Assembly: GCF_965230365.1 (NCBI RefSeq)
Contig: NZ_OZ246003.1
Location: 2,669,781 to 2,693,780 of the forward strand
Source: Oricola sp.
GTDB lineage: Bacteria > Pseudomonadota > Alphaproteobacteria > Rhizobiales > Rhizobiaceae
DNA: 24,000 bases
Direction of reading: 5' to 3'
In this document: positions 1,441 through 13,900 of the stretch, piece by piece
Position numbering within the stretch: the stretch's first letter is position 1
Layout: each line of letters starts with the position of its first letter
Program-made: the position numbers and the translations under genes
Notes under the pieces: model-generated
Databases searched by the model: none
What the model was told of the DNA's origin: nothing
Seen by the model: the letters and a program-made list of their open reading frames with translations, nothing else

Positions 1441-3264
1441 CTATCTTCCCCGCGGTTGCGCGAAGTTGAAGGAAACCGGTTTCGGCTCGGAGATTGTGAC
1501 ACGGGTGTTGAGCTTGGCGATCTGACTGTCGCGCAGCATCTGGGTCTCGCGCGTATCGACGCGCAAATCCGCAGTTATCACGACACCGAACAAGTCGCTC
1601 GCCTCGGCACGGGTATAGTACTCCATCCGGACATCGCGAAGCACGGCTTGGGGATCGCGCGCATAGGCCGGCCCGAAACCACCACCGCCAGGTGTGCCGA
1701 CCCGCACCGTATCGCCCGGCGCCAGCGGGATATCCTGCTCCTTGGTGATATGTTCGGGGCGATGTTCCACGCCATCGCGGACCACGAGAATCTCGCCCGG
1801 CATGCCGTCTTCACCACCGCGTGCGCCTTGCGGGCCAAAGCGTCCATGGTCCATGACAAAGGAGGCGACCGCATTTCCGCGCAACAGTTCGACTTCGTAG
1901 TTGATGCCGAATCCGCCCCGCTGGCTTCCCGCACCGCCCGACGCTTCTCTCAGTGAGTATTCCCGGAAAAACACCGGGAACACCTGCTCGGTGATCTCCA
2001 CCGGCGGGCTCTTTGAGATGCCGATGGTCGAGCAGCCATTTGTCAAGCCGTCACCGCCGGCATAACCGCCATAGCCACCGCCAGAGATGTGGTACATCAC
2101 ATAATCCCGGCCCATCGCCGGATCGCTCCCGCCAAGTGCGAAATTGCCGCTGGAGCCAGCCGGTGCCGCGGTGACCCTGTCGGGTAGTGCCTTCACCAAC
2201 GCCGAGAACACGGCCTCTGCGATGCGTTGGGAAACCTCCGCCGCGCATCCCGACACCGGGCGCGGATACTCCGCATGCAGGAATGTTCCCGCCGGATCGA
2301 TGATGGTGATCGGATCGAACGCGCCGGCGCTGAGCGGCACGTCCGGAAAGATATGGCGCATCGCCAGGTAGACCGACGAATGTGTTGTCGCCAGTACACA
2401 GTTCATCGGCCCCTTGCATGGCGGGCTGGAGCCGGCGAAATCGAAAATCAGGCGATTGTCGATTGTCTTCATCACCGAGAGCGCGATCTTAAGCGGCTTG
2501 TTGATCACGCCATCGGAATCGATGAACGCTTCGCCATGATATGTATCGGTGCCGATCTGCGCGATGCAGGCGCGCATTTGATCTGCCGAGCGCACCCGCA
2601 ACTCGTCGATTGCCGCCTTGACGGTTTCGTCGCCATGCCGGTCCAGGAGTTCGGTCAGCCGCTCGCGACCGACCTCCAACGCGGCGGTTTGCGCGCGGAT
2701 ATCGCCAATACGCTGCTCCGCGACCCTGATGTTGGAGGTGATGATGCTGAAGATCTCTTCATCCATCTTGCCGCGCTTGAACAGCTTGACGGGCGGCAGC
2801 CGCAGGCCTTCCTGCTCAACCGAGGTCGCAGACGCCGAAAACCCGCCAGGAACCGCGCCGCCTATATCCGGCCAATGGCCGATGTTCGACAACCAGCAGT
2901 AGATTTCGCCATTGCGGTAATACGGCATCGCAAAGCGCACATCCATCAGATGTGTTCCGCCCAAATAGGGATCGTTGACGACATAGATGTCGCCCTCGTC
3001 CGGCGGCCCGCATTTCCCGTCGCGGATGAACTCGATGATCGTGCGCGTGGATGCTTGCATCGTGCCCACGAACACCGGTAACCCGCCCAACCCCTGGGCA
3101 ATCAGCGAACCGTCTTCCGCCGAGTAGATACCGTCGGAGCGATCGTCGGCTTCCGCGATGATCGGCGAAAACGCCGCCCGCGAAAAAGTCGTATCCATCT
3201 CATCGCAGACCTGCTGCAGACCCGACTGGATCACAGTCAGTGTGATGGGATCCAGCCTAGGCAT
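1441..3264 (-). CDS. hyuB: Hydantoinase B/oxoprolinase family protein (HyuB-type subunit of an ATP-dependent cyclic-amide hydrolase or carboxylase)
   Basis: The N-terminus MPRLDPITLTVIQSGLQQVCDEMDTTFSRAAFSPIIAEADDRSDG is typical of the HyuB/OplaH-B family. I trimmed the track ORF (1441..3450) to the ATG at 3264. That ATG overlaps the hyuA stop by 8 nt (CATGCCTAGG), and the discarded extension is Arg/Ser-rich junk lying inside hyuA. Confidence 0.9.
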   Translation of the reverse strand: MPRLDPITLTVIQSGLQQVCDEMDTTFSRAAFSPIIAEADDRSDGIYSAEDGSLIAQGLGGLPVFVGTMQASTRTIIEFIRDGKCGPPDEGDIYVVNDPYLGGTHLMDVRFAMPYYRNGEIYCWLSNIGHWPDIGGAVPGGFSASATSVEQEGLRLPPVKLFKRGKMDEEIFSIITSNIRVAEQRIGDIRAQTAALEVGRERLTELLDRHGDETVKAAIDELRVRSADQMRACIAQIGTDTYHGEAFIDSDGVINKPLKIALSVMKTIDNRLIFDFAGSSPPCKGPMNCVLATTHSSVYLAMRHIFPDVPLSAGAFDPITIIDPAGTFLHAEYPRPVSGCAAEVSQRIAEAVFSALVKALPDRVTAAPAGSSGNFALGGSDPAMGRDYVMYHISGGGYGGYAGGDGLTNGCSTIGISKSPPVEITEQVFPVFFREYSLREASGGAGSQRGGFGINYEVELLRGNAVASFVMDHGRFGPQGARGGEDGMPGEILVVRDGVEHRPEHITKEQDIPLAPGDTVRVGTPGGGGFGPAYARDPQAVLRDVRMEYYTRAEASDLFGVVITADLRVDTRETQMLRDSQIAKLNTRVTISEPKPVSFNFAQPRGR

Positions 3265-5332
3265 GTCTACCCCCCAAGACTTCGATAATGATGTTGCCGT
3301 CATCATCGCCCTCGGCAACGCTGTCGGGCGCGAGAACGGTCGTCGCATCGAACTGCGCCAGAATTGCCTGCCCTTCGATGCGCGCCCGCAACGGCAAGCG
3401 CTCCCTTTCATAGACCGGCGTGTCGAACCACTCGCCGTCAAACCAGACATCGCGCCGGCCGATCAGCGCCTCTTCCGCAGTCCCGTGCCGCTTCGCCTGT
3501 GTAATCAGTTCCTCGAGCGGCGCGGTCTCGCGGACACCGACGACGGACGAATTCACATTCACGATCATCGCCCGAACCTCCGGGAGCCGAACCCGGAAAC
3601 GTCGGTAATATGCTTCTTCGAATGCGATCTGGATGGATTGAAGGTTGTCGATCTTTCCATCGACCGGCACCCGGATGAGGTGCGTTTGCCCGGCGAACTG
3701 CATGTCGAGGCTGTGCTCGATGCGGATTTCGACCGGCTTGATCGTCTCGTCGTCGAGCGCTGCAACACCCGCCGCAACCTGGCTGGCGAGAACCTCGTTC
3801 AGACGCGTCAGATCGACATCGTGAACAAGTGCATTCAGCGTGTTGACATAGTCGTGCTGGAGATCGGCGACCATGCAACCAATGGCATTGGTGATTCCTG
3901 GACGAGCCGGCACCATGACGCGCGGAATTCCGAGTTCCCTGGCAAGGTCGACAGCATGCAGCGGTCCGGCGCCACCAAAGGCAAAGAGCGCCAAATCGCG
4001 CGGATCGTGCCCCTTGGCGATAGACACCATTCTGATCGCGCCCGCCATTTTCAGATTGGCGATTTTGAGAACCGCGCCAGCAGCCTCCGTGGCCGATACA
4101 CCCAGTTGTTCGCCAAGGCTTTCCTGGAATGCGCTGGATATCCGATCCCTGTCGACCGAATTGTCGACGGCCAGCAGCCGTTCGGGATCGAGCCGCCCCA
4201 GCAGCAGGTTCGCATCGGTAATCGTTGGTGCGCTTCCACCGCGTCCAAAACAGATCGGGCCCGGCATGGACCCGGCGCTCTGTGGACCGACATCGAGCAA
4301 CCCCGCAGCGTTGACCCGCGCCAGGGAGCCGCCACCGGCGCCAATCGTGTGAACATCCACCATCGGGACATGGATCGGGATCGCATACTCGACTTCGGTC
4401 TCGTTGGAGACAGTAGGCCGCCCGCCGCGCACCAGCGCAACATCGGTCGATGTGCCGCCCATGTCGTAGGTGATCAGATCCGATATTCCCGCGCGCTCCG
4501 CGATCCGCGCTGCCGCAATCACCCCGGAGGCAGGGCCCGACATGACCGTCTTGACCGCCTCACGAACAACGAGAGCCGATGATGTCGTGCCACCATTGCC
4601 GTTCATCATCAGAAAATCGCGGCGGTAGCCCTTGGTCAGCAGGCTGTCGCGCAGCTTGTCGACATAACGTTGCAGCACCGGTTGGACCGATGCGTTCACG
4701 GCCGCCGTCACACCGCGCTCGAACTCGCGCGCCTCCGAAAGGAGCGAATGGCCTGTCGTAACGAAGCCGTTCGGCCACATCTTCAGGGCGATCTCGGCCG
4801 CGCGGCGCTCGTGCTCCGGGTTCTTGTAAGCGTGTAAAAAATGAATAACCAGGGCGTCGCAGCCGGCTTCTATCAGTTCATTGACGGCTTCCCTGAACTC
4901 GTCCTCGTCCAAAGGTTCGCGAACGGCTCCCGTTGCTTCGATGCGCTCTGTAACCTCCAGCCGTAGATCGCGGGGCACGACCGGCACGTAGGTCCCGAAT
5001 AGACCGTAAGGGTTAGGCCTCGTGCGCCGTCCGAGTTCGATGATGTCGCGGAACCCCCTCGTCGTTATCAGGCCCGCCTTTGCAAGCCGCCGCTCCAGAA
5101 GCGCGTTCGTTGTCGTCGTGGTGCCGTGAATAATGAGATCGATATCGGCTACCCCGTGTTCCGTATGCTCGATTGCGCTCATCACAGCGCGTGACTGGTC
5201 GTCCGGCGTCGTCGGGACTTTCGATACGCAGACAGCACCAGCCTCTGAATCGAGCACGACGAGGTCGGTGAACGTCCCGCCGACGTCGACCCCCGCAATC
5301 ACCCCGCCCGATTTTTCCGGAATCTTGATCAT
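3257..5332 (-). CDS. hyuA: Hydantoinase A/oxoprolinase family protein (HyuA-type ATP-binding subunit)
   Basis: IAGVDVGGTFTDLVVL near the N-terminus and DMGGTSTDV mid-protein are the ASKHA-fold signatures of the HyuA/oxoprolinase A family. I chose the start at ATG 5332 (MIKIPEK). A GTG at 5353 is an alternative start and has no SD. Confidence 0.9.
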   Translation of the reverse strand: MIKIPEKSGGVIAGVDVGGTFTDLVVLDSEAGAVCVSKVPTTPDDQSRAVMSAIEHTEHGVADIDLIIHGTTTTTNALLERRLAKAGLITTRGFRDIIELGRRTRPNPYGLFGTYVPVVPRDLRLEVTERIEATGAVREPLDEDEFREAVNELIEAGCDALVIHFLHAYKNPEHERRAAEIALKMWPNGFVTTGHSLLSEAREFERGVTAAVNASVQPVLQRYVDKLRDSLLTKGYRRDFLMMNGNGGTTSSALVVREAVKTVMSGPASGVIAAARIAERAGISDLITYDMGGTSTDVALVRGGRPTVSNETEVEYAIPIHVPMVDVHTIGAGGGSLARVNAAGLLDVGPQSAGSMPGPICFGRGGSAPTITDANLLLGRLDPERLLAVDNSVDRDRISSAFQESLGEQLGVSATEAAGAVLKIANLKMAGAIRMVSIAKGHDPRDLALFAFGGAGPLHAVDLARELGIPRVMVPARPGITNAIGCMVADLQHDYVNTLNALVHDVDLTRLNEVLASQVAAGVAALDDETIKPVEIRIEHSLDMQFAGQTHLIRVPVDGKIDNLQSIQIAFEEAYYRRFRVRLPEVRAMIVNVNSSVVGVRETAPLEELITQAKRHGTAEEALIGRRDVWFDGEWFDTPVYERERLPLRARIEGQAILAQFDATTVLAPDSVAEGDDDGNIIIEVLGGRHA

Positions 5333-5353
5333 GGTTCCGTTCGATCGTCTCAC

Positions 5354-5452
5354 TTGCTTCGAAACGCATGCCCTTTACGCCACAGCGGATCGAAATTTAT
5401 TTGTATACGAACTAGTTTCTCAAACAGTACTAGTGACCATGGGCTGACGCCA
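5354..5452 (-). promoter_or_regulatory. AT-rich intergenic region upstream of hyuA, a probable internal promoter/operator
   Basis: This is the only sizeable gap (about 100-120 bp) inside the Module A array. Its AT-rich core cgaaatttatttgtatacgaactagtttctcaaacagtactagtgac holds the palindromes GTATAC and AACTAGTT, plus two ACTAGT hexamers (5411-5416 and 5429-5434). Confidence 0.4.
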
Positions 5453-6037
5453 TCAGCGCAAGCCGTCGCGCGCCTTGATGCCGGATGCCTCCAGGCCACC
5501 CATTCTGGCATGAATGCGCGGGCCGCTTGCCATCACCAGGCAAAGAACCATCTCGTCCGGACGCGGACCGTCCGGGACGCACAGCTCCATGGCGTCGAAA
5601 TGACTGCGCACATAAGCTGCGTTGATATGGCCGATCGGAATGTCGATCCGCGAACCGAAGCCGCCCACTTTTTTCGCCGACGGCACGATTGCCAGCGCCT
5701 CCCCGAGCCGTTCTCGCATCGCGTATCCGCCCGGAACGTGCCAAAGCGCGCCATGTTCGAGTTCGCCGGCGGTGCCGACGATCACACCCTTTCCGTAGGA
5801 ATCGATCATCTCTGCATCGTCGCCAAACGCGTCGATGAGCTTCTCTGTCATCAACTGGCCCAACGGCTTCAGATCGTCCATTGCGCCCTGTAAATCCTCG
5901 ACGTAGCGGCCGGCAAAGGGATTTCCGACCACCGCCATTGCCGCCGCCCTGTGTCTCGGCCGCTCTGGCGCAGTCCCGCCATCATGATGGATGGCCTCCG
6001 ATATGACCGCGATCTTGCGTATTGGAAAATCTGGCAT
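5453..6037 (-). CDS. AA_synth (DUF1185, 'amino acid synthesis') family protein, biochemical function unknown
   Basis: 194 aa. IRKIAVISE...RAAAMAVVGNPFAGRYVEDL...GTAGELEHGALWH...IDIPIGHINAAYVRSHFD matches my recollection of this roughly 190-aa family. A strong SD (GGAGGGGGCGGA) lies directly upstream of the ATG at 6037. Confidence 0.65.
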   Translation of the reverse strand: MPDFPIRKIAVISEAIHHDGGTAPERPRHRAAAMAVVGNPFAGRYVEDLQGAMDDLKPLGQLMTEKLIDAFGDDAEMIDSYGKGVIVGTAGELEHGALWHVPGGYAMRERLGEALAIVPSAKKVGGFGSRIDIPIGHINAAYVRSHFDAMELCVPDGPRPDEMVLCLVMASGPRIHARMGGLEASGIKARDGLR

Positions 6038-6065: not shown

Positions 6066-6581
6066 TTATCGCGCGACTTTCTTAAGTAGTTCTATGAAGC
6101 GTTTACGTTCACGCTGGTTGAGCGGCGCCAGAAGCTCATCGCTGACACCGCGCGAAATTGGCACGACATCAAGCGTGAAACCGATTCCCTTGTCCGTGAG
6201 CCGGATCAGATTGACCCGCTGGTCGCTCGGCGAAACCACCCGTTCGGTCAAATCCAACGCTTCGAGACGCCGCAGCATCGTACTCAGCGTAGCGGTATCG
6301 ATAGCCGTGATCCTGCCAAGCTGGTTCTGCGGCAGATCTCCGTGCCGCAACAAGGTCGCAAGCACCGCAACCTGCGTCGGTGTAATGCCGTAGCCCTCGA
6401 ACGCCTTCTGGAAAAGCGCGGTCCCGCGTTGATGGGCGAGACGGATCAGATAGGCATTGTGTTCTTCCAGAAGGAAGCCGCTTTCGGCCAACCGCTTTTC
6501 GATCTCGGCGCGCGTAGGGCGCCGCCCTCCATCCAGGGTTTGGTCTTCGGCATGGGCCGTGTTTCCCGCGTGATACGTCAT
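6066..6581 (-). CDS. MarR-family transcriptional regulator
   Basis: 171 aa. The winged-HTH core is ITPTQVAVLATLLRHGDLPQNQLGRITAIDTATLSTMLRRLEALDLTERVVSPSDQRVNLIRLTDKG. The start ATG overlaps the upstream stop as ATGA (6578-6581). Confidence 0.9.
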   Translation of the reverse strand: MTYHAGNTAHAEDQTLDGGRRPTRAEIEKRLAESGFLLEEHNAYLIRLAHQRGTALFQKAFEGYGITPTQVAVLATLLRHGDLPQNQLGRITAIDTATLSTMLRRLEALDLTERVVSPSDQRVNLIRLTDKGIGFTLDVVPISRGVSDELLAPLNQRERKRFIELLKKVAR

Positions 6582-7246
6582 TGTGCTGCCACCCCCGAAG
6601 CCATGTCGTCTTCAAACACGAGGTTCTGAATCGCATCCCCGGTCGACAACGCCCGTGCTACCGAGCCACTGTCGGAGACCGTCCCGAAATGCGTCGCAAT
6701 GTCGTACAACGTCGAAACGTGTTCGCGAGGCCCGGTCGCCGCACAGGCATCGTGCGGGACCACCACATCGTAGCCCTGGAAGAAGGCGTCATGGACGGTC
6801 GACCGGACACAGATGTTGGTCACGACTCCGAACACAACCAGCTGCGAGATCATCATGTCTTTGAGCACCAGATCCAGGTCAGTCTGAAAGAAGGCGGAGT
6901 AGCGATGCTTGATCACGCGGATGTCGCCGTCCTGCGGTTCGAGATCATCGATGATTTCGGTCGCCCAGGTGTTCTCTACGCAGTGTGGCGTACGTTTCAG
7001 CCACTCCCGGTCTCGCCGCATGTCGCGCCTGTGAGAGTCGACGACAAAGATCACAGGCACATCGTTCTTGCGGGCGGCGGCGATCAGTTCCTTCTGCTGC
7101 GGCATGAGTGTTTCATAACCCGGAAGCACCATCTTCCCGCCGGGCTTGCAAAACTCGTTGATCATGTCGACGACCACAACGGCCGTCCGCGAAGCATCGA
7201 GAACAGTGGAGCCTTCGTGCCGATGCGCGGAAAACACATCTTTCAT
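6578..7246 (-). CDS. Isochorismatase-family cysteine hydrolase (amidohydrolase; CSHase/RutB/PncA superfamily)
   Basis: All three D-K-C triad contexts are present: AVVVVDMINEF (Asp), VIKHRYSAFF (Lys) and GVVTNICVRST (Cys). I trimmed the start to ATG 7246 (MKDVFSAH), which has GGAG 12 nt upstream. The track ORF's 32-aa extension overlaps the upstream gene's end region. Confidence 0.88.
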   Translation of the reverse strand: MKDVFSAHRHEGSTVLDASRTAVVVVDMINEFCKPGGKMVLPGYETLMPQQKELIAAARKNDVPVIFVVDSHRRDMRRDREWLKRTPHCVENTWATEIIDDLEPQDGDIRVIKHRYSAFFQTDLDLVLKDMMISQLVVFGVVTNICVRSTVHDAFFQGYDVVVPHDACAATGPREHVSTLYDIATHFGTVSDSGSVARALSTGDAIQNLVFEDDMASGVAAQ

Positions 7247-8219: not shown

Positions 8220-9236
8220 CTAGGTCAGCCTGCCGATGGACGCCTTGAACAACTCAAGGAACGACCGCCCGTCGAGCCCCTGACAAATTCGCGACGTCGC
8301 GGGCCCTTCGAATTCGAGGATCTGGCGGCCGGTAAAAGCCACCGTCTGGCCGCGCACCAGCCTTTCGCTGAGCGCGACGTCGACAAAGCGCGGTTTGCTC
8401 ATTTCGAAGAACTCGGGATGGGTGACCGCGGCAACGGCGATCGCATCGTCGAGCGGAAACCCGACAAGCGAAAAGAACTCTCGCCAGATGTCGATATAGA
8501 TCGGGAATTCCTGGCAGATATGGCGCACGACCTTGCTTTCGGGATGGGCGGCCGCGAGATCGGCCAGATCGTCGCGTGTCAGCATCGAAGCGGCGACGCG
8601 GTTGTCCTCGCAGACGTCAAGCGGCACCAGCACCACTGGCGCGCCGGATCGCAGCACCACGCGGGCCGCCTCGGGGTCCGCCCAGATATTGTATTCGGAA
8701 ACCGGCGTGATGTTGCCGGGTGTCGTGAAGCACCCGCCCAGCACGACGATCTGCCGGACGAGGTCGACCAGATCGGGTGCCAAATTAAGCGCCATCGCGA
8801 TGTTTGTCTGCGGGCCGGTTGCAACGATCGAAACCTCGCCCGGATTGGCACGGACCGTGTCTATGATGAAGTCCGTGGCATGTTTGTCCATCGGCGGGCG
8901 CACGGGCTGCGGCGCAGGCGGGTTGAATTTCTCCAATCGCTTGCCGAAGCGATCGCGAAGCGTCTTCTCGAAATTTACCGGTGCGTCCATGTCCGCGGCC
9001 GAGTTGCCGACAAACGGACGGTAGGCGCCCGCGGCGACGGGCAGATCGTCCCGGCCGGCCAGACTGGCAGTGTTGAGCACGACATTCGTGACCTGATCGA
9101 TCGAGCCCGCGGCGCCGGCCACGCCCGTCACGCCCAACAGGTCGATGTCGTCGCACCCAAGCGCAAAGAGGATGGCGAGAATGTCGTCGCCTGCGGAATC
9201 GACATCCAGGATGATTTTCTGCTTCTTGCGCGTCAT
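8220..9236 (-). CDS. Divergent IUNH-family nucleoside hydrolase-like protein
   Basis: IILDVDSAGDDILAILFA keeps the DxDxxxDD motif, and SEYNIWADPEAA is conserved. There is no HG..GLDG motif; an unrelated segment (GNSAADMDAPVNFEKTLRDRFGKRLEKFNPPAPQPVRPP) takes its place. PLDDAIA replaces LHDP. The start ATG at 9236 overlaps the permease stop as ATGA. The rest of track ORF 8220..9998 is a spurious extension inside the permease gene. Confidence 0.8.
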   Translation of the reverse strand: MTRKKQKIILDVDSAGDDILAILFALGCDDIDLLGVTGVAGAAGSIDQVTNVVLNTASLAGRDDLPVAAGAYRPFVGNSAADMDAPVNFEKTLRDRFGKRLEKFNPPAPQPVRPPMDKHATDFIIDTVRANPGEVSIVATGPQTNIAMALNLAPDLVDLVRQIVVLGGCFTTPGNITPVSEYNIWADPEAARVVLRSGAPVVLVPLDVCEDNRVAASMLTRDDLADLAAAHPESKVVRHICQEFPIYIDIWREFFSLVGFPLDDAIAVAAVTHPEFFEMSKPRFVDVALSERLVRGQTVAFTGRQILEFEGPATSRICQGLDGRSFLELFKASIGRLT

Positions 9237-10189
9237 GTTTGCTTGCGCCCGATGAGTTGTAGAGTTTCTAGGGTTTCCCGGAAGGTCTTGGGACGCAGCC
9301 GGTAGGTCAGCGCGAACAGCGCGCCGAGCGTCACCAGATAGGGCACAGTCAGTACGATATAGGACGACGCCAGTCCCAATGTCTGCAGCCGCAGCGACAG
9401 CGCGTCGGCGAAACCGAACAGCAGACAACCAAACAACACCCGAACTGGATCGCCGGCCGAGAAAATCAGCACCGCCACGGCCATGAAACCGCGTCCAGAC
9501 GACATGTTCTCGGCAAACATTGTGATATAGCCGAGCGACAGATGCGCTCCGGCGAGCCCGGCCAGAACACCGCAGCACGCAGATGCTATGTGCTGCATTT
9601 TCGCGTTGTTGATGCCGAGCGACTCGGCTGCGGCCGGCTTCTCCCCCGTTACCCGGATGTAAAGACCGATCCGCGTCCGGTAGATCACCAACCAGACGAC
9701 GAATACCAGGAGTAATGACAGGTAGATCAGAGGCGTGAAGCTGGCGAGTGCCTTGCCGAGCGATCCCATGTCGCCAATGAACGGAATGTCCAGACGCGGC
9801 AGACCGACGATGTCGCCGCTGACGATAGAACCGCGCGTGCCGAAGAAGGCCTTGGTCAACGTGATCGTCAAGCCGCCAGCGAGAATATTTAGCGCCAGCC
9901 CGACAACGACCTCGTTTGCCCGGAGCGTCACCACGAATAGCGAGAACACCAGCGCCGCCGACACCGACGCACCGACGCCGATTGCCACTCCGCCCCAAGC
10001 CGACTGGGTCCAGATCGACCCCATGACGGCAAAGAAGGCACCGAGCAGCATCTGCCCCTCCAGGCCGATATTGAAGATCCCCGCTTTCGTCGTGAAGGCA
10101 CCGCCCAGCGCCACCAGCAGGATCGGCGTCGTCATCCGCAGGGTCGCTGCGATCAGCGAAACGTTGAAGATGGTGTCTAGAACTTCCAT
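9233..10189 (-). CDS. ABC transporter permease (BMP/nucleoside-type, CUT2-like; YufQ/NupQ-like)
   Basis: Polytopic hydrophobic protein. MEVLDTIFNVSLIAATLRMTTPILLVALGGAFTTKAGIFNIGLEGQMLLGAF is the typical N-terminus of this permease family. I trimmed the start to ATG 10189, which overlaps the upstream permease by 13 nt. Confidence 0.88.
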   Translation of the reverse strand: MEVLDTIFNVSLIAATLRMTTPILLVALGGAFTTKAGIFNIGLEGQMLLGAFFAVMGSIWTQSAWGGVAIGVGASVSAALVFSLFVVTLRANEVVVGLALNILAGGLTITLTKAFFGTRGSIVSGDIVGLPRLDIPFIGDMGSLGKALASFTPLIYLSLLLVFVVWLVIYRTRIGLYIRVTGEKPAAAESLGINNAKMQHIASACCGVLAGLAGAHLSLGYITMFAENMSSGRGFMAVAVLIFSAGDPVRVLFGCLLFGFADALSLRLQTLGLASSYIVLTVPYLVTLGALFALTYRLRPKTFRETLETLQLIGRKQT

Positions 10190-11271
10190 CGACGCTCTCC
10201 CTGGCTGCTGTCGCGCCGGCGGCGGATCAGGATTTGCGCCGATACGCAAAGGATGATGAACGCCTGGAAGACGGTGATCACTTCGCGCGAGGCATTGGTC
10301 TCGACCTCCATCAAAAGCGAGCCGGCACGCAACGATCCGAAAAACAGCGCGGTGGCAATCACCCCGATCGGGCTGCCATTGGCCAGTAGTGCGGCGATTA
10401 CGCCGTCGAACCCGAAGCCTGGAGCAAAGCCTTCCATGAAACGGTGGTGGACACCGAGGGTCTCCACGCCGCCGGCGAGCCCACCGATTGCGCCTGAGCA
10501 CAGCAAGATAAGCAGGATGTTGCGCCGAACCGGCACGCCGCCATATTCCGCGAATTTAATGTTGGACCCCATCGAGTTCATGCCGTAGCCGGCCGCGGTG
10601 CGCGACAGGAACAGATGCAGGCCGACCGCAAGCATGACGCCGATGAACAGGCCCGCGTTCAGGCGCGAGAACTCGAACAGCTGCGGCAAGTGCGCCGTCT
10701 CCGCAATCGGCTCGGTCTCCGACCAGCCGCCCGGCCGCTTGAAGACGTCAATCGTCAGATACGAGGTAAGCAGGATCGCCACATAATTGGAGAGAATGGT
10801 CGAAACGACCTCATTGGTTCCGAAGCGGGCCCTGAAGATAGCCGGCAGCAGGATCCACAGTCCACCGGCTGCGAACGCTGCAGCGAGCGCCACGAGCATG
10901 TGGATACCCACCGGCATGGCAAACTGGAATCCGACCCACGCGGCTGCGAAACCGCCCATGTAGAGCTGCCCCTCGATGCCGATGTTGAACAGCCCGCCAC
11001 GGAACGCGATGCAGGCGGCAACCCCGCTGATGATGATCGGCGTAGCCTGAAGCAACGACCCGGCGATGCGTTCGCTGCTGCCAAAGGCCCCTCGAAGCAG
11101 CGTCGTGAAGACAAGGATCGGATCTTCGCCGACGAGCATGATGATGATGCCGCCGCCGACGATGGAGATCGCGACCGCGAGCAATTGACCGAACAGCGAC
11201 TCCAGCCATTCCGGCATGCGCGCGGTCTTTCGTTCGGCCGGGCTCCGGCTCTCCCCGACGTCGGCGCTCAC
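10177..11271 (-). CDS. ABC transporter permease (BMP/nucleoside-type; YufP/NupP-like)
   Basis: 364-aa hydrophobic protein with FNIGIEGQLYMGGFAAAW. The GTG start overlaps the ATPase stop as GTGA (11268-11271). An alternative start is the ATG at 11217 (MPEWLES). Confidence 0.85.
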   Translation of the reverse strand: MSADVGESRSPAERKTARMPEWLESLFGQLLAVAISIVGGGIIIMLVGEDPILVFTTLLRGAFGSSERIAGSLLQATPIIISGVAACIAFRGGLFNIGIEGQLYMGGFAAAWVGFQFAMPVGIHMLVALAAAFAAGGLWILLPAIFRARFGTNEVVSTILSNYVAILLTSYLTIDVFKRPGGWSETEPIAETAHLPQLFEFSRLNAGLFIGVMLAVGLHLFLSRTAAGYGMNSMGSNIKFAEYGGVPVRRNILLILLCSGAIGGLAGGVETLGVHHRFMEGFAPGFGFDGVIAALLANGSPIGVIATALFFGSLRAGSLLMEVETNASREVITVFQAFIILCVSAQILIRRRRDSSQGERRWKF

Positions 11272-12803
11272 GCCGCCTTCTCCCCGCCGATGCTTCCACC
11301 CGCCATGAGCGTTCCGATCTCCTCTTCCGTGGTGTTCTCAGGGTCGACCTCACCTGAAATCTGACCGGCAAACATGACCAGCACCCGATCCGCCAGTGCC
11401 AGGATTTCATCGATCTGCACAGAGATCAGCAGGATCGCACTTCCGGAATTGCGGCTGCGTATGATTTCGTCGTGGATGCGCTCCATGGCTCCGATGTCGA
11501 TTCCGCGCGTCGGCTGATCGATCAGCAACAGTGGCGCATGCCTGGAAAACTCGCGTGCGACGACGACCTTCTGCATGTTGCCCCCGGACAGCGTCTTGAC
11601 GACCGCGTTCTCGTCGGAGGCGCGTATGTCGAAGCGTTCGATGAGATTTCTCGCCAGTTGTCGGACGCGCGACCAATTGATGATGCCGAACTTGGACCAT
11701 GGCTCGGTGTGCTGCCGGGCCATCAGAACGTTGGAGCTGATGTCGGAAGCCGCGTCGACGCCGTGAACCAGCCGGTTGGCCGGCACATGCGCAAGCCCTG
11801 CCTGGCGCATTGCCCCAGGGTCGTGATGCCCGACTTCGACGCCATTCAGCACGATGTGTCCGTAACTTGGCGCTCGCAGGCCGGAAACGACTTCTGCCAA
11901 TTGCGTCTGTCCGTTGCCGTCGACCCCGACGATCCCGACGATTTCGCCGGACTTCACCTCAAGATCGATGTCGCGGAGCGCCGGAAGACCCCTGTCGTCG
12001 CGCGCATAGATCTCCCGTAGTTCCAGCACGGTCTCGCCGGAAGTCTGCGCGCGCTTGCGCCTGTCGAAATTCACGTTGCGCCCAACCATCATGCGGACGA
12101 GCGCCTCTTCATCCAATTCACGTGTCGGCCTGGTGCCGACAACCTCACCGTCCCGCAACACCGTGACGGTGTCGGACACCTCCAGCACCTCAGACAGATG
12201 ATGCGAGATAAAGATCACCGTCATGCCTGTATCGGCAAAGCGCCGGATGATGCGGAACAGGTCACGACTTTCCTGTGGCGTCAGCACCGCAGTCGGTTCG
12301 TCGAGGATGACTACATTGGCGCCGCGCGCCAGGACCTTCAAAATCTCCACGCGTTGTTCGGCGCCGACCGACAGCTGGTGGATCGGGCGATCGGGATCGA
12401 TCTGCAAACCGAATTCCTCGGAAAGCGCGCGCGCCTTTTCGGATTGCGCCTTCAGGTCGATCAGTCCCAGATTGGTCATTTCCATGCCAAGAAAAATGTT
12501 TTCAGCCACCGTTAGCGACGGCACGAGCTTAAAATGCTGGTGTACCATTCCGAGGCCGAGACCGATCGCCGTGCGTGGCGTTTCCATCACCACCGGTGTC
12601 CCGCCGATTTTGATCGCCCCCTCGTCCGGCTGCATCAGGCCAAACAGGATATTCATTAGCGTGGTCTTGCCAGCACCGTTTTCGCCAACGATTGCGTGAA
12701 TCTCGCCGCTCTTTGCGCCAAAACTCACATCCTTGTTGGCGGTGACCGGGCCGAAGCGCTTGGTCACGCCGACCATTTCAACGGCAAAAGCCATAGCAGA
12801 CAT
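11268..12803 (-). CDS. ABC transporter ATP-binding protein with two fused NBDs (second one degenerate)
   Basis: Walker A GENGAGKTTL, signature LSVGAEQRVEI and Walker B VVILDEPT are in NBD1. NBD2 has a degenerate P-loop (GVDGNGQTQL), LSGGNMQKV and LLLIDQPTRGID. Confidence 0.93.
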   Translation of the reverse strand: MSAMAFAVEMVGVTKRFGPVTANKDVSFGAKSGEIHAIVGENGAGKTTLMNILFGLMQPDEGAIKIGGTPVVMETPRTAIGLGLGMVHQHFKLVPSLTVAENIFLGMEMTNLGLIDLKAQSEKARALSEEFGLQIDPDRPIHQLSVGAEQRVEILKVLARGANVVILDEPTAVLTPQESRDLFRIIRRFADTGMTVIFISHHLSEVLEVSDTVTVLRDGEVVGTRPTRELDEEALVRMMVGRNVNFDRRKRAQTSGETVLELREIYARDDRGLPALRDIDLEVKSGEIVGIVGVDGNGQTQLAEVVSGLRAPSYGHIVLNGVEVGHHDPGAMRQAGLAHVPANRLVHGVDAASDISSNVLMARQHTEPWSKFGIINWSRVRQLARNLIERFDIRASDENAVVKTLSGGNMQKVVVAREFSRHAPLLLIDQPTRGIDIGAMERIHDEIIRSRNSGSAILLISVQIDEILALADRVLVMFAGQISGEVDPENTTEEEIGTLMAGGSIGGEKAA

Positions 12804-12841
12804 GCACCGAAATTCGTTTCCCGCGAGTTGCGGACATTAGA

Positions 12842-12876: not shown

Positions 12877-12892
12877 CCACCCCCTGCTGTTC

Positions 12893-13900
12893 TTATCTGT
12901 TCAGCGTTACCGCGATCGTTCCATCAGCGATCCCGGCGCGGACGCTTTCAACGCCGTCCAGCACTTCCGCAGGTATCTTGTCGGCGACCTCGTCGCAGAT
13001 CTTCAGCTCGATACCGCCGCTGGCGACACCGTAGGAGACGGGACCGGCCGTGACAGGCGCAGAGCCGTCGACTTCGCCCTTGATCATGTCAAAGACAGCA
13101 ATGTCCGCGCGTTTCATCATCGAAGCCAGGATGTGACCCGGGGCGGTGCCGCATTGGTCGATGTCGACGCCCACGGCATACTTGTCTGCAACCTTGGCGG
13201 CTTGTAGAACGCCTTCGCCGGTCGGGCCGGCAGCCTGATAGATGACATCAACGCCCTGGCCGTAGAGCGTCATGGCGAGTTCGCTGCCCTTCGCCGGATC
13301 GTCGAAGGTGCCGGAGAACACGCCGGCAACAGACACGCCCTCGGAGTTCTCGCCGACGCCCTGTTCGTAACCCATCAGGAAGTTGCGGATGACCGGAATA
13401 TCGCGGCCGCCGATGAAGCCGACTTCGCTGCCGGAATCGAAGCCTTCAACCCCCTTCTCGGTCAACATGCTGGTCAGCGTGCCGACAAGGTAGGAACCCT
13501 CTTCCTCAACGAAGTCCACATAGGTCATCGTCTCGCTTTCGAGGATGCCGTCGATGAAGATGAAGCGCTGGTCCGGATAGGCCGCATTGGATTTCTGCAG
13601 CGCGTCGACCAGTTCCCACCCCATCACGAAGACGAGATCGTACTCGCCAGCCTTGGCAATGTTGTTGAACTGCTCTTCATAATCGAGGGCGCGATTGCCG
13701 GTATCGATGACCTTGATTTCGACACCCAGGTCGCTCTCGGCCTTCTTCAAGCCATTGACAATCGAGATACCGAAGCCCTGCGAAAAGTAGCCGGAGATTG
13801 CGGCGACCTTGAGCTTCTCGGCGGACGCCAGCGAAGTGGACGCTGCGAGCGCCCCGGCCACGGCTGCCCCGGTGGCCAGTTTCTTCATCATTCCCTTCAT
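12893..13900 (-). CDS. BMP-family (PnrA/Med-like) ABC substrate-binding protein, secreted
   Basis: Sec-type signal peptide MKGMMKKLATGAAVAGALAASTSLASA|EK with no lipobox Cys. The body (KVAAISGYFSQGFGISIVNGLKKA...DLVFVMGWELVDAL...) is BMP-like. SD GGGAGA lies 8 nt upstream of the ATG at 13900. Confidence 0.85.
   Translation of the reverse strand: MKGMMKKLATGAAVAGALAASTSLASAEKLKVAAISGYFSQGFGISIVNGLKKAESDLGVEIKVIDTGNRALDYEEQFNNIAKAGEYDLVFVMGWELVDALQKSNAAYPDQRFIFIDGILESETMTYVDFVEEEGSYLVGTLTSMLTEKGVEGFDSGSEVGFIGGRDIPVIRNFLMGYEQGVGENSEGVSVAGVFSGTFDDPAKGSELAMTLYGQGVDVIYQAAGPTGEGVLQAAKVADKYAVGVDIDQCGTAPGHILASMMKRADIAVFDMIKGEVDGSAPVTAGPVSYGVASGGIELKICDEVADKIPAEVLDGVESVRAGIADGTIAVTLNR

What the first reader, a model, noticed from the sequence alone, without database searches (positions are those of the whole stretch)
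1441..13900. Module A: candidate undescribed nucleoside catabolic operon linking ribosyl cleavage to an ATP-dependent hydantoinase plus cysteine amidohydrolase pair
Seen in sequence: eleven co-directional genes are tightly packed or overlapping. They encode a BMP-type SBP, a fused ATPase, two permeases, two IUNH nucleoside hydrolases, an isochorismatase-like cysteine hydrolase with an intact D-K-C triad, MarR, an AA_synth/DUF1185 protein, HyuA and HyuB. Established knowledge: BMP/PnrA-type ABC systems import nucleosides (a family member also binds riboflavin), and IUNH enzymes hydrolyse the N-ribosidic bond. HyuA/HyuB-type enzymes open cyclic amides with ATP (N-methylhydantoin, 5-oxoproline, caprolactam) or carboxylate ketones. 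N-carbamoylsarcosine amidase, the step after N-methylhydantoinase in creatinine degradation, belongs to the isochorismatase superfamily. Inference: this combination is not the canonical purine or pyrimidine nucleoside route (deaminase, phosphorylase, Rut or reductive pathway). It suggests import of a riboside whose aglycone is a hydantoin-, lactam- or ureide-like ring. That ring would be released by the hydrolases, opened by HyuAB using ATP, and then deamidated or decarbamoylated by the cysteine hydrolase. Candidates to test include oxidised or modified nucleosides from RNA turnover and plant or rhizosphere ribosides. I cannot name the substrate from sequence.
Basis: partly seen in the sequence, partly recalled or inferred. 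Interest (0 to 1): 0.8.

Follow-up and report, generated by a model that had tools for sequence, protein, structure and literature searches.

The report
Nicotinamide-riboside breakdown cluster with ATP-driven ring opener
This gene cluster most likely lets a marine relative of the rhizobia import a vitamin-B3 nucleoside (probably nicotinamide riboside), strip off the sugar and the amide group, and feed the ring into a known nicotinate breakdown route, using an ATP-consuming enzyme pair where most relatives use a metal hydrolase called enamidase.

Summary
The eleven genes are real, at the stated coordinates, and belong to the stated families. The unit is larger than reported. Two divergent dehydrogenase genes (14094-15762) and two copies of a palindromic operator belong to it.

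Across 80 related loci, the cysteine hydrolase, MarR, AA_synth, BMP transporter and both nucleoside hydrolases are widely linked. HyuAB is present in only 10 loci. In 57 others an enamidase-like hydrolase takes its place, and no locus has both.

Orthologues of this HyuAB and AA_synth lie inside true nicotinate operons, beside a molybdenum hydroxylase and 6-hydroxynicotinate reductase. In one relative the nucleoside genes and the full nicotinate pathway form a single array.

The ring is therefore most likely pyridine-derived: the lactam 1,4,5,6-tetrahydro-6-oxonicotinate (THON), not a hydantoin or ureide. The cysteine hydrolase most likely acts before ring opening, as a nicotinamidase-like enzyme. 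HyuAB would be an ATP-dependent stand-in for enamidase.

The hydroxylase and reductase are not in the window, so how the ring reaches the lactam state here is unresolved.

Verdict: a new variant of a known pathway.

The parts
12893..13900 (-). BMP/PnrA-family periplasmic substrate-binding protein, first gene of the import and hydrolysis operon
   Evidence: Pfam Bmp 157.6 bits. Best PDB matches are 7X0R 'Lbp' (139.7 bits), then TmpC/PnrA-type proteins. In PLSDB, orthologues at 72% identity or more occur only in the 7 records that also carry the cysteine hydrolase; the next best match is 37%.
11268..12803 (-). Fused two-domain ABC ATPase
   Evidence: Pfam ABC_tran, two stretches, 182.6 bits. Conserved at 60-80% identity in related loci.
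10177..11271 (-). ABC permease 1 (BPD_transp_2)
   Evidence: Pfam 122.6 bits. Its start overlaps the ATPase stop by 4 nt.
9233..10189 (-). ABC permease 2 (BPD_transp_2)
   Evidence: Pfam 128.6 bits. The start is set by the 318-aa gene call in the 99%-identical contig L083.
8220..9236 (-). Nucleoside hydrolase 1 (IU_nuc_hydro), the divergent paralogue
   Evidence: Pfam 241.9 bits. NCBIfam UriH 164 and RihA 155 bits, far below cut-offs. PDB RihA 132 bits. DVDSAGDD motif present.
7281..8210 (-). Nucleoside hydrolase 2 (IU_nuc_hydro), RihA-like
   Evidence: Pfam 297.8 bits. NCBIfam RihA 295 bits against a cut-off of 433. DCDPGHDD motif present. Always paired with hydrolase 1 in related loci.
6578..7246 (-). 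Isochorismatase-superfamily cysteine amidohydrolase, proposed nicotinamidase-like enzyme
   Evidence: Pfam 160 bits. D27/K113/C146 invariant. D70-x-H72...H88-C-V-E-N-T aligns with E. coli PncA D52/H54/H85, and RutB lacks these residues. 65-81% identical in 80 loci. Sits in line with Mo-hydroxylase, Hnr and enamidase in L016, L029 and L065.
6066..6581 (-). MarR-family regulator, probable repressor of the regulon
   Evidence: Pfam MarR/MarR_2. Overlaps the hydrolase stop by 4 nt. Present in 68 of 80 loci. MarR genes also flank the plain nicotinate operons L091, L092, L093, L095 and L096.
5453..6037 (-). AA_synth / DUF1185 (PF06684) protein, B-type orthogroup. Biochemical function unknown; proposed to act just after ring opening.
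   Evidence: Pfam 226.5 bits. PDB 3BYQ and 2QTP, function unknown. 57-64% identical to the first of the two AA_synth genes in Roseobacter nicotinate operons that contain Hnr.
5394..5423 (-). Promoter-like site upstream of hyuA. It overlaps operator copy 1 (5400-5411, TTCGTATACAAA).
   Evidence: Promoter scan. The palindrome TTCGTRYACGAA has two sites in 24 kb against 0.08 expected. An equivalent site lies upstream of hyuA in L001-L007, L013, L081 and L083, whatever the orientation of hyuAB.
3257..5332 (-). HyuA-type subunit (Hydant_A_N + Hydantoinase_A + Hydant_A_C), proposed ATP-dependent THON lactam hydrolase, alpha subunit
   Evidence: Pfam. NCBIfam caprolactamase alpha 528.7 bits against a cut-off of 1000. 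PDB N-methylhydantoinase 7HK5 444 bits, caprolactamase 6YRA 393 bits, acetone carboxylase 253 bits. 60% identical to the HyuA in the Pseudosulfitobacter nicotinate operon.
1441..3264 (-). HyuB-type subunit (Hydantoinase_B), beta subunit of the same enzyme
   Evidence: Pfam 523 bits. NCBIfam caprolactamase beta 305 bits against a cut-off of 1000. 73% identical to Pseudosulfitobacter HyuB. 75% DNA identity to the Fuscovulum ytuae hyuB that lies in an Hnr operon.
13976..13987 (.). Operator copy 2 (TTCGTACACGAA) in the 193-nt divergent region between the SBP gene and the epimerase-family gene
   Evidence: Conserved at the same place in all complete window-type loci.
14094..14933 (+). NAD-dependent epimerase/dehydratase-family protein (279 aa), divergent from the SBP gene. 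Member of the regulon; role unresolved.
   Evidence: Pfam Epimerase 88.9 bits. Weak PDB matches to an SDR (4ID9) and to uronate dehydrogenase 3RFT. Conserved with the cluster in 57 of 80 loci.
14953..15762 (+). Classical short-chain dehydrogenase, co-transcribed with the epimerase-family gene. Role unresolved.
   Evidence: Pfam adh_short_C2 176 bits. NCBIfam glucose-1-dehydrogenase subfamily 199.7 bits against a cut-off of 215. Conserved in 55 of 80 loci.

Best explanation
The cluster is a MarR-controlled regulon for catabolism of a pyridine (vitamin B3) riboside, most probably nicotinamide riboside. It feeds the known THON branch of nicotinate degradation.

**Proposed sequence**
1. The BMP-type ABC system imports the riboside.
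2. The two IUNH hydrolases cleave the N-ribosidic bond.
3. The isochorismatase-like cysteine hydrolase, which carries a nicotinamidase-type metal site, removes the carboxamide nitrogen (nicotinamide to nicotinate, or the same reaction on a 6-oxo/reduced derivative).
4. The ring is brought to the lactam 1,4,5,6-tetrahydro-6-oxonicotinate (THON). No enzyme in the window is assigned to this step. It could be done by a Mo-hydroxylase plus 6-hydroxynicotinate reductase encoded elsewhere. Alternatively it could be done by the co-regulated epimerase-family and SDR dehydrogenases.
5. HyuAB hydrolyses the six-membered lactam at the expense of ATP, replacing the metal-dependent enamidase that most relatives use.
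6. AA_synth handles the ring-opened product, either by enamine hydrolysis or by decarboxylation of 2-formylglutarate. The carbon then goes to glutarate and glutaryl-CoA.

**Shown here**
- Family assignments of all genes.
- Conserved linkage across 80 loci.
- Mutual exclusion of HyuAB and enamidase.
- Orthology of HyuAB and AA_synth to genes inside operons that contain 6-hydroxynicotinate reductase.
- A shared operator at the transporter and hyuA promoters.

**Inferred**
- Every substrate.
- The order of steps.
- ATP use by HyuAB.
- The AA_synth reaction.
- MarR as the operator-binding protein.
For: **1. Conservation.** 80 loci were anchored on the cysteine hydrolase (65-81% identity). AA_synth is present in 68, MarR in 68, the orthologous SBP in 58 and the IUNH genes in 55. 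A ring-opening enzyme together with SBP and IUNH is present in 53.

**2. Displacement.** HyuAB occurs in 10 loci, the enamidase-like protein in 57, both in 0. The enamidase-like protein scores 372 bits, E 2.7e-110, full length, against PDB 2VUN enamidase.

**3. The same swap occurs in true nicotinate operons.**
- Pseudosulfitobacter plasmid: HyuB, HyuA, Mo-hydroxylase, FAD subunit, ferredoxin-NADP reductase, 6-hydroxynicotinate reductase, UPF0280, two AA_synth genes, MarR.
- Sulfitobacter CB2047: the same operon with an amidohydrolase, 63% identical to the enamidase-like protein, instead of HyuAB.
- Fuscovulum ytuae: FAD, Mo, Hnr, UPF0280, AA_synth, ABC transporter, HyuA, HyuB in one operon.
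- Window HyuB and HyuA are 73% and 60% identical to the Pseudosulfitobacter proteins.

**4. Fusion of the two halves.** L016 is one co-directional array: SBP, ATPase, two permeases, two IUNH genes, cysteine hydrolase, enamidase, FAD, Mo, Hnr, UPF0280, two AA_synth genes. L029 and L065 read FAD, Mo, Hnr, UPF0280, cysteine hydrolase, enamidase.

**5. Cysteine hydrolase.** The D-x-H...HCV(E/Q)N motif aligns with the E. coli PncA metal ligands and is absent from RutB. The gene is missing from the plain nicotinate operons L091, L092, L093, L095 and L096.

**6. Downstream fate.**
- In six Kaistia loci, a LysR regulator, glutaryl-CoA dehydrogenase and a succinate-glutarate CoA-transferase-like gene lie between the hydrolase-MarR pair and the AA_synth-enamidase genes. 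The dehydrogenase scores 620 bits against PDB GCDH. The transferase scores 594.6 bits.
- The Azorhizobium oxalatiphilum operon has the same CoA-transferase family next to Hnr.
- This matches THON to glutarate in A. caulinodans, as summarised in PMC3511419.

**7. Co-regulation.** TTCGTRYACGAA has two sites in the window against 0.08 expected, upstream of the SBP gene and of hyuA. The same pair is found in L001-L007, L013, L081 (S. medicae) and L083, including loci where hyuAB is inverted.

**8. Established knowledge.**
- IUNH enzymes hydrolyse nicotinamide riboside (yeast Urh1, PMC11241417; T. vaginalis, PMC10474468).
- HyuAB-type enzymes hydrolyse lactams with ATP (caprolactamase, PMC8453981).
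Against: - No substrate was tested, and the SBP ligand is unknown.
- The window and 76 of 80 loci lack the hydroxylase and 6-hydroxynicotinate reductase within 10 kb.
- Neither Sinorhizobium medicae nor Mesorhizobium appears among the 120 best reductase homologues in two searches, and the reductase is absent from S. medicae plasmids in PLSDB. The standard route to THON may therefore be missing in some carriers. This is only weak evidence of absence.
- The cysteine hydrolase fails the PncA equivalog cut-off (54.6 bits against 174). It scores higher against RutB (119.7) and BiuH (86.3).
- The roles of the co-regulated epimerase-family and SDR genes are unexplained.
- HyuA is about as close to N-methylhydantoinase (444 bits) as to caprolactamase (393 bits), so family placement alone does not fix the substrate.
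- L023 lacks the operator upstream of hyuA in the sequence available.
Confidence: 0.6

Rival explanations
1. A hydroxylase-independent route. The riboside itself (nicotinamide riboside, its reduced form NRH, or a hydrated/oxidised derivative) is converted to a 6-oxo-1,4,5,6-tetrahydronicotinamide riboside by the two co-regulated NAD(P) dehydrogenases. This could run by reduction, hydration and oxidation, which is redox-neutral overall. The pyrimidine-type IUNH enzymes then release the lactam-amide, the cysteine hydrolase makes THON, and HyuAB or enamidase opens it. No Mo-hydroxylase or ferredoxin-dependent reductase is needed.
For: - The ring opener and AA_synth are attached to the nucleoside genes in over 60 loci that lack hydroxylase and reductase within 10 kb.
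- The epimerase-family and SDR genes share the operator-bearing divergent promoter. They are conserved in 55-57 loci. They are absent from plain nicotinate operons. They are also absent from L016, L029 and L065, which carry the hydroxylase and reductase in cis.
- No S. medicae or Mesorhizobium reductase appears among the best 120 hits of two searches.
- The cysteine hydrolase is not a PncA equivalog.
- IUNH2 is RihA-like. It would therefore suit an N-ribosyl lactam that resembles uridine.
Against: - Kaistia dalseonensis has the epimerase/SDR-bearing cluster and also a reductase locus elsewhere (L020, L094).
- L051 has both epimerase/SDR and the Mo-hydroxylase.
- The cysteine hydrolases are about 70% identical between loci with and without the hydroxylase in cis, which suggests one substrate.
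- The SDR is closest to sugar 1-dehydrogenases, so it may simply oxidise the released ribose.
- No precedent is known to me for this chemistry.
Confidence: 0.17
2. Two independent modules that happen to be neighbours: a general pyrimidine-nucleoside uptake and hydrolysis operon (RihA-like), and a separate lower nicotinate/lactam pathway. There is no shared substrate.
For: - IUNH2 is most similar to RihA, and IUNH1 to UriH/RihA.
- 11 loci have the hydrolase, ring opener and AA_synth genes without SBP or IUNH within 10 kb. Methylobacterium uses a UrtA/AmiC-like transporter instead.
- hyuAB has its own promoter and is inverted in several relatives.
Against: - Linkage is kept in 53 loci across different gene orders.
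- L016 is a single array.
- The operator is shared by the transporter and hyuA promoters.
- The SBP orthogroup is found only with this cluster in PLSDB: 72-74% identity, then a drop to 37%.
- Acidobacteriota keep the cysteine hydrolase next to an IUNH gene even without any transporter.
Confidence: 0.1
3. An unknown riboside carries a hydantoin-, ureide- or lactam-type aglycone. HyuAB opens it directly after ribosyl cleavage, and the cysteine hydrolase then decarbamoylates or deamidates it, by analogy with N-methylhydantoinase and N-carbamoylsarcosine amidase.
For: - HyuA's best PDB match is an N-methylhydantoinase (444 bits).
- The cysteine hydrolase matches N-carbamoylsarcosine amidase (88 bits) and RutB (97 bits) in PDB.
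- No hydroxylase or reductase is present in the window.
Against: - HyuAB is replaced by an enamidase orthologue in 57 loci.
- HyuAB sits in 6-hydroxynicotinate reductase operons in three other genera.
- AA_synth is a fixed member of nicotinate operons.
- Glutarate-utilisation genes are inserted in the Kaistia clusters.
- The cysteine hydrolase has a nicotinamidase-type metal motif that RutB lacks.
Confidence: 0.08
4. HyuAB is an ordinary 5-oxoprolinase or housekeeping lactamase, unrelated to the rest of the cluster.
For: The Pfam family name, and the separate promoter upstream of hyuA.
Against: - The operator is shared with the transporter promoter.
- HyuAB and enamidase are strictly exclusive.
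- The orthologues are embedded in nicotinate operons.
Confidence: 0.02

Closest known systems
THON branch of nicotinate catabolism (Eubacterium barkeri nic cluster; Azorhizobium caulinodans aerobic pathway to glutarate; alpha-proteobacterial cluster described in PMC3511419)
   Same: - The window's AA_synth, and the ring-opening position that HyuAB fills, correspond to genes of these operons. This is shown by orthology to L091, L092, L093, L095 and L096.
- Regulation is MarR-type.
- The expected fate is glutarate to glutaryl-CoA.
   Different: - The nicotinate hydroxylase, 6-hydroxynicotinate reductase, UPF0280 protein and ferredoxin/FNR genes are absent from the window.
- Enamidase is replaced by HyuAB.
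- There is one AA_synth gene instead of two.
- A nucleoside importer, two ribosidases, a cysteine amidohydrolase and two dehydrogenases are added, none of which the described clusters have.
Enamidase (E. barkeri Ena, PDB 2VUN)
   Same: It occupies the same pathway position as HyuAB, judged by mutual exclusion in 67 loci and in Roseobacter operons. Both enzyme types hydrolyse cyclic amides.
   Different: The fold and mechanism are unrelated. Enamidase is a binuclear-metal amidohydrolase that needs no ATP. HyuAB belongs to the ATP-dependent hydantoinase/oxoprolinase family. The window has no enamidase gene.
Caprolactamase CapAB, N-methylhydantoinase and 5-oxoprolinase (HyuA/HyuB family)
   Same: Same two-subunit architecture and domain set. 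The closest curated models are CapA and CapB. The closest solved structures are 7HK5 and 6YRA. The expected chemistry is ATP-driven lactam hydrolysis.
   Different: Scores are about half of the equivalog cut-offs (528.7 of 1000; 305 of 1000). The genomic context points to a six-membered enamide lactam derived from pyridine, not to caprolactam, N-methylhydantoin or 5-oxoproline.
Nicotinamidase PncA, and the nicotinamide riboside hydrolases of the IUNH family (yeast Urh1, T. vaginalis riboside hydrolase)
   Same: - The cysteine hydrolase has the D-K-C triad plus the D-x-H...H metal motif, aligned with E. coli PncA.
- The IUNH proteins have intact Ca/ribose-binding motifs.
- The combination riboside hydrolase followed by nicotinamidase is the known NR to nicotinamide to nicotinate route (PMC11241417, PMC10474468).
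   Different: - Those enzymes serve NAD salvage. Here the genes are wired to a degradative pathway.
- The hydrolase is only 32% identical to E. coli PncA and fails its curated cut-off.
Rut pathway (RutB ureidoacrylate amidohydrolase, RutC)
   Same: RutB is the best-scoring curated model for the C-terminal half of the cysteine hydrolase (119.7 bits). A small trimer/hexamer-fold protein accompanies an amidase in both systems.
   Different: There is no RutA, RutD or RutF. The RutB cut-off of 378 is not reached. RutB lacks the metal-ligand residues. The context is nicotinate, not uracil.

Membership tests
IUNH nucleoside hydrolases (PF01156) | Full-length domain with the N-terminal DxDxxxDD Ca2+/ribose-binding motif | tested here: met
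   Both proteins match the profile end to end, at 241.9 and 297.8 bits. The motifs DVDSAGDD and DCDPGHDD are read from the translations.
IUNH nucleoside hydrolases (PF01156) | Equivalence to a characterised enzyme (RihA, RihB, RihC, UriH) | tested here: not met
   The best scores are 295 of 433 (RihA) for IUNH2 and 164 of 450 (UriH) for IUNH1.
Isochorismatase-like cysteine hydrolases (PF00857) | Asp-Lys-Cys catalytic triad | tested here: met
   D27, K113 and C146 are invariant in 16 orthologues. D27 and C146 are aligned with PncA and RutB.
Nicotinamidase (PncA) | Metal-binding Asp-x-His plus a distal His (HCV motif) | tested here: met
   D70, H72 and H88 align with E. coli PncA D52, H54 and H85. 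RutB has no equivalents. The ligand roles come from knowledge of PncA structures and were not tested here.
Nicotinamidase (PncA) | Score above the curated equivalog cut-off | tested here: not met
   PRK11609 scores 54.6 bits against a cut-off of 174. RutB scores 119.7 of 378, and BiuH 86.3 of 370.
ATP-dependent hydantoinase/oxoprolinase (HyuA/HyuB) | HyuA with Hydant_A_N, Hydantoinase_A and Hydant_A_C domains, plus an adjacent HyuB with Hydantoinase_B | tested here: met
   The two genes overlap by 8 nt.
Caprolactamase CapAB / acetophenone carboxylase / acetone carboxylase | Equivalog-level similarity | tested here: not met
   CapA 528.7 of 1000, CapB 305 of 1000, ApcC 324.8 of 1500. Acetone carboxylase scores 253 bits in PDB.
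THON-type nicotinate catabolic cluster | Molybdenum nicotinate hydroxylase and 6-hydroxynicotinate reductase in the cluster | tested here: not met
   tblastn with the Roseobacter proteins finds them in L016, L029, L065 and L051 but not in the window or the other loci.
THON-type nicotinate catabolic cluster | A THON ring-opening enzyme (enamidase) in the cluster | tested here: not met
   There is no enamidase homologue in the window or in any locus that carries HyuAB. HyuAB occupies the position instead.
THON-type nicotinate catabolic cluster | AA_synth (PF06684) genes orthologous to those next to Hnr and UPF0280 | tested here: met
   The window AA_synth is 64% identical to Pseudosulfitobacter AAs1 and 57% identical to Sulfitobacter AAs1. 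Only the B-type copy is present.
THON-type nicotinate catabolic cluster | Growth on, or turnover of, nicotinate and THON | not testable with these tools
   Requires culture work or enzyme assays.
BMP/PnrA nucleoside ABC importers | Bmp-family SBP with two BPD_transp_2 permeases and a fused double ATPase | tested here: met
   PDB relatives include TmpC/PnrA and the BmpA/BmpD proteins.
BMP/PnrA nucleoside ABC importers | A nucleoside ligand | not testable with these tools
   The nearest structure, 7X0R 'Lbp', has no paper in the searchable library.
   The context is nicotinate genes. PDB N-carbamoylsarcosine amidase scores only 88 bits. No creatininase or deaminase gene is present in the window.

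The most novel reading that the evidence does not exclude
In this and most related clusters, the pyridine ring reaches the THON-type lactam without a molybdenum hydroxylase or the ferredoxin-dependent 6-hydroxynicotinate reductase. The two co-regulated NAD(P) dehydrogenases would act on the riboside itself: reduction of nicotinamide riboside, hydration, then oxidation of the 6-hydroxyl, which is redox-neutral overall. Uridine-type ribosidases, a dedicated amidase and an ATP-dependent lactamase would then complete a previously unknown nucleoside-level route of vitamin B3 degradation. The same route might also clear hydrated or damaged NAD(H)-derived ribosides.
Probability: 0.17. Interest if true: 0.85.

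Novelty: new variant of a known kind. Interest (0 to 1): 0.6.

Why it matters

- **A new substrate class for HyuA/HyuB.** The cluster would give this family a pyridine-derived enamide lactam as substrate. It would also be a clear case of non-orthologous replacement, with an ATP-driven enzyme standing in for the metal hydrolase enamidase.
- **A pathway context for PF06684.** This family is still named 'amino acid synthesis', and the structures 3BYQ and 2QTP have no assigned function. Placing it in the THON pathway yields a testable reaction: the step after THON ring opening.
- **A possible first dedicated catabolic system for nicotinamide riboside.** To my knowledge, and in the searchable literature, no dedicated uptake-and-catabolism system for nicotinamide riboside has been described. 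This one is widespread in plant- and alga-associated Hyphomicrobiales (Mesorhizobium, Kaistia, Shinella, Hoeflea, Sinorhizobium medicae). That bears on competition for B-vitamins in rhizosphere and marine communities.
- **A candidate shortcut.** The missing hydroxylase and reductase, together with the two conserved dehydrogenases, suggest a possible new route from nicotinamide riboside to the lactam.

Tried and rejected
**Searches that led nowhere**
- Megablast of the 12.5-kb region against plasmids gave only one short hyuB hit (Fuscovulum). That hit later proved informative.
- An exact-sequence look-up of the window AA_synth found nothing.
- Literature searches found no paper on this cluster or on HyuAB in nicotinate catabolism. 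The terms covered DUF1185/PF06684, enamidase, ureidoacrylate plus oxoprolinase, dihydrouridine plus nucleoside hydrolase, 7X0R, and nicotinate plus hydantoinase.
- One paper search failed on term syntax. Kitts 1992 is not held, so its pathway is cited through PMC3511419.
- There is no Rfam family (for example an NAD riboswitch) and no tRNA in the window.

**Hypotheses considered and dropped**
- *A Rut-like hydrolytic uracil route* (RutB-like amidase, RidA-like AA_synth, YdfG-like SDR). Dropped after the enamidase match and the nicotinate operons.
- *Dihydrouridine to dihydrouracil to N-carbamoyl-beta-alanine.* Dropped for the same reason, and because glutarate genes, not beta-alanine genes, are linked.
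- *6-oxopipecolate or valerolactam as the HyuAB substrate.* These would fit glutaryl-CoA dehydrogenase, but not Hnr, the Mo-hydroxylase or enamidase.

**Test that stayed inconclusive**
- Two searches with 6-hydroxynicotinate reductase and one against plasmids could not establish whether window-type genomes have the reductase elsewhere. Only Kaistia dalseonensis was resolved, and it has the reductase on another contig.

**Operator in enamidase-type loci**
- The window-type operator is mostly absent from enamidase-type loci. Mesorhizobium has its own motif.

Full report
**Observation**

The window carries eleven co-directional minus-strand genes between 1441 and 13900.

- a Bmp-family binding protein;
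- a fused double ABC ATPase;
- two BPD_transp_2 permeases;
- two IU_nuc_hydro proteins;
- an isochorismatase-like protein;
- MarR;
- AA_synth (PF06684);
- HyuA, with all three of its domains;
- HyuB.

Both nucleoside hydrolases keep the DxDxxxDD motif. The isochorismatase-like protein keeps Asp27, Lys113 and Cys146.

Genes overlap by 4-13 nt or are separated by 9-34 nt, with two exceptions. One is an 89-nt gap after the binding-protein gene. The other is a 99-120-nt gap before hyuA.

No protein reaches the curated equivalog cut-off of any NCBIfam model. HyuA and HyuB are nearest to caprolactamase, at about half the cut-off. The cysteine hydrolase is nearest to RutB, BiuH and, more weakly, PncA.

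No Rfam family or tRNA is present.

**Source and relatives**

The region is not in PLSDB at the DNA level.

A metagenomic contig (L083) encodes a cysteine hydrolase 99% identical to the window's and shows the same gene order.

The closest named genome is Oricola indica JL-62. There all thirteen genes, including the two divergent ones, are 62-87% identical in the same order.

**Conservation test**

An alignment of the cysteine hydrolase (A1) was used to scan one genome per species. This gave 80 loci, most with full 10-kb flanks on both sides. tblastn with every window protein gave a clear picture.

| Gene | Loci (of 80) |
|---|---|
| AA_synth | 68 |
| MarR | 68 |
| Orthologous binding protein | 58 |
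| IUNH genes | 55 |
| Divergent epimerase-family gene | 57 |
| SDR gene | 55 |
| HyuAB | 10 |
| Amidohydro_1 (enamidase-like) protein | 57 |
| Both HyuAB and the enamidase-like protein | 0 |

HyuAB occurs in Oricola, Hoeflea, Chelativorans, a Shinella MAG, Oceaniradius and a Rhodobacteraceae MAG. Outside that set it is also found in Sinorhizobium medicae pSMED01 and Rhizobium rhododendri.

In the 57 loci that lack HyuAB, an Amidohydro_1 protein sits next to MarR.

That protein scores 372 bits (E 2.7e-110, full length) against PDB 2VUN. This is the enamidase of Eubacterium barkeri, which opens 1,4,5,6-tetrahydro-6-oxonicotinate (THON).

Its linkage is limited to one clade. However, the replacement by another cyclic-amide hydrolase shows that a ring-opening step is an integral part of the unit.

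**What the ring is**

Three lines of evidence point to the THON branch of nicotinate catabolism.

*First, AA_synth and HyuAB orthologues lie in true nicotinate operons.*
- Pseudosulfitobacter plasmid: HyuB, HyuA, a molybdopterin hydroxylase, its FAD subunit, a ferredoxin-NADP reductase, a gene NCBI names 6-hydroxynicotinate reductase, UPF0280, two AA_synth genes, an ABC transporter and MarR.
- Sulfitobacter CB2047: the same operon with an amidohydrolase in place of HyuAB.
- Fuscovulum ytuae: FAD, Mo, Hnr, UPF0280, AA_synth, ABC transporter, HyuA and HyuB in one operon.
- Azorhizobium oxalatiphilum and Rhizobium gallicum: the enamidase version.
- Window HyuB and HyuA are 73% and 60% identical to the Pseudosulfitobacter proteins.
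- The Sulfitobacter amidohydrolase is 63% identical to the Mesorhizobium enamidase-like protein.

*Second, four of the 80 loci join the two halves.*
- L016 is one co-directional array: binding protein, ATPase, two permeases, two IUNH genes, cysteine hydrolase, enamidase, FAD subunit, Mo-hydroxylase, reductase, UPF0280 and two AA_synth genes.
- L051 begins the same way, up to the hydroxylase, where the contig ends.
- L029 and L065 read FAD, Mo, reductase, UPF0280, cysteine hydrolase, enamidase.

*Third, six Kaistia loci point to glutarate.* Three genes are inserted between the hydrolase-MarR pair and the AA_synth-enamidase genes:
- a LysR regulator;
- glutaryl-CoA dehydrogenase (620 bits against solved GCDH);
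- a succinate-glutarate CoA-transferase-like gene (594.6 bits).

This fits the published fate of THON in Azorhizobium caulinodans, which goes via glutarate (PMC3511419, citing Kitts 1992). [quoted passage not shown] These are plausibly the AA_synth pair.

**The cysteine hydrolase**

Plain nicotinate operons lack this gene. It appears where an amide or a riboside would enter the pathway.

Examples include Methylobacterium loci with a UrtA/AmiC-like transporter. Acidobacteriota loci also keep it next to a lone IUNH gene.

Aligned with E. coli PncA and RutB, it shares the PncA residues D-x-H and the HCV(E/Q)N histidine. These are the metal ligands of nicotinamidases (from knowledge of PncA structures). 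RutB lacks them.

It nevertheless fails the PncA cut-off. 'Nicotinamidase-like' is therefore a functional proposal, not a family assignment. Its substrate could be nicotinamide or a 6-oxo/reduced nicotinamide.

**Regulation**

The palindrome TTCGTRYACGAA occurs twice in the window: at 13976-13987, between the binding-protein gene and the epimerase-family gene, and at 5400-5411, upstream of hyuA, where it overlaps a promoter-like site. The expected count is 0.08.

In L001-L007, L013, L081 (S. medicae) and L083 there are exactly two sites with at most one mismatch. They lie at the same two places, even where hyuAB is inverted. L023 lacks the second site in the available sequence.

Across the other 71 loci (1.37 Mb) only 10 such sites occur. 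Three of them lie just upstream of AA_synth genes (L026, L042, L030).

This argues that hyuAB is a separately transcribed but co-regulated member of the regulon, probably under the cluster's MarR. The binding itself is inferred.

**Specificity of the transporter**

In PLSDB, binding-protein orthologues at 72-74% identity occur only in the seven records that also carry the cysteine hydrolase. The next best match is 37%. This is not the general nucleoside importer.

IUNH-family enzymes are known to hydrolyse nicotinamide riboside (PMC11241417, PMC10474468).

**Most likely mechanism**

1. A pyridine riboside, most probably nicotinamide riboside, is imported.
2. The two IUNH hydrolases cleave the ribosyl bond.
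3. The cysteine hydrolase removes the amide.
4. The ring is converted to THON.
5. HyuAB opens the lactam using ATP.
6. AA_synth processes the ring-opened product, either by enamine hydrolysis or by the decarboxylation that follows ring cleavage in Azorhizobium.
7. The carbon is oxidised to glutarate.

What is shown: families, linkage, mutual exclusion, orthology to genes in nicotinate operons, and the shared operator. Substrates, step order and the AA_synth reaction are inferred.

**Open problem**

The hydroxylase and reductase are not in the window, nor within 10 kb in 76 of 80 loci.

In Kaistia dalseonensis the reductase sits on another contig, next to the glutarate genes. No enamidase or AA_synth is present there. 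The pathway can therefore be split between loci.

For S. medicae and Mesorhizobium, no reductase appears among the best 120 hits of two searches, and none appears on S. medicae plasmids. This is weak evidence of absence.

The co-regulated epimerase-family and SDR genes are absent from plain nicotinate operons. Their role is unexplained. They may oxidise ribose, since their nearest families are sugar 1-dehydrogenases. Alternatively, they may carry out redox steps on the riboside that bypass the hydroxylase and reductase. I give the bypass about 0.17 probability.

**Comparison and novelty**

Every enzyme family here is known, and the lower pathway is the described THON route. Three things are new:
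- the attachment of a nucleoside import and cleavage module and an amidase to that route;
- the replacement of enamidase by an ATP-dependent HyuAB, seen independently in Roseobacter nicotinate operons;
- a pathway context for PF06684.

I found no paper describing any of these in the searchable library.

I rate this a new variant of a known kind, with interest 0.6.

Noticed in passing
window 15790-24000 (minus strand): A second nucleoside-type module runs off the window end. It encodes an SSADH-type aldehyde dehydrogenase, a SIS_2 protein, a PNP_UDP_1 phosphorylase (uridine-phosphorylase-like, 104 bits against a cut-off of 280), a PfkB kinase, a second isochorismatase-like hydrolase that also has the D-x-H...HCV motif, two BPD_transp_2 permeases and a fused ABC ATPase. 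None of the related loci has it next to the cluster. The aldehyde dehydrogenase could in principle serve as glutarate-semialdehyde dehydrogenase for the first module.
   Followed up: partly
window 6-1436 (+): A 476-aa protein with N-terminal ankyrin repeats and a PG_binding_1 domain lies convergent with hyuB. It has no counterpart in related loci.
   Followed up: no
L036, L038, L045, L049, L056 (Acidobacteriota), around 7560-10630: Orthologues of the cysteine hydrolase (66-68% identity) lie about 2.4 kb from a single IUNH-like gene (38-39% identity). No transporter, MarR, AA_synth or ring-opening gene is nearby. This looks like a minimal riboside-hydrolase plus amidase pair.
   Followed up: partly
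L033, L035, L039, L063, L074, L076 (Kaistia), about 11200-14700: A LysR regulator, glutaryl-CoA dehydrogenase and a succinate-glutarate CoA-transferase-like gene are inserted between the hydrolase-MarR pair and the AA_synth/enamidase genes. In K. dalseonensis the same trio lies instead next to 6-hydroxynicotinate reductase on another contig.
   Followed up: yes
L046 (Mesorhizobium sp. B2-3-4) 9750-10010 and 13700-13940: Enamidase-type clusters lack the window's operator. Instead they share their own motif, TATGA(C/G)CATCAACGA, in both divergent promoter regions.
   Followed up: partly
L011, L012, L015, L020, L024, L027 (about 12770-13680 in L011): A ketopantoate-reductase-family (ApbA) gene lies between the enamidase and AA_synth genes. 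It is found mostly in loci that lack the epimerase-family/SDR pair, which suggests an alternative NAD(P)H-dependent step.
   Followed up: no
L030 (Methylobacterium symbioticum) 1392-14555: This version has no nucleoside genes. It has a UrtA/AmiC-like binding protein with an LIV-type ABC transporter, two AA_synth genes, an SSADH-type aldehyde dehydrogenase, a Phenol_MetA_deg outer-membrane protein, the cysteine hydrolase, MarR, enamidase and an MFS transporter. A window-type operator variant lies just upstream of the AA_synth pair.
   Followed up: partly
PF06684 literature (PMC2954203): The name 'amino acid synthesis' rests partly on neighbouring 'branched-chain amino acid' ABC genes. The neighbours seen here are BPD_transp_2/LIV-type transporters inside nicotinate operons, so that inference looks unsafe.
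   Followed up: partly
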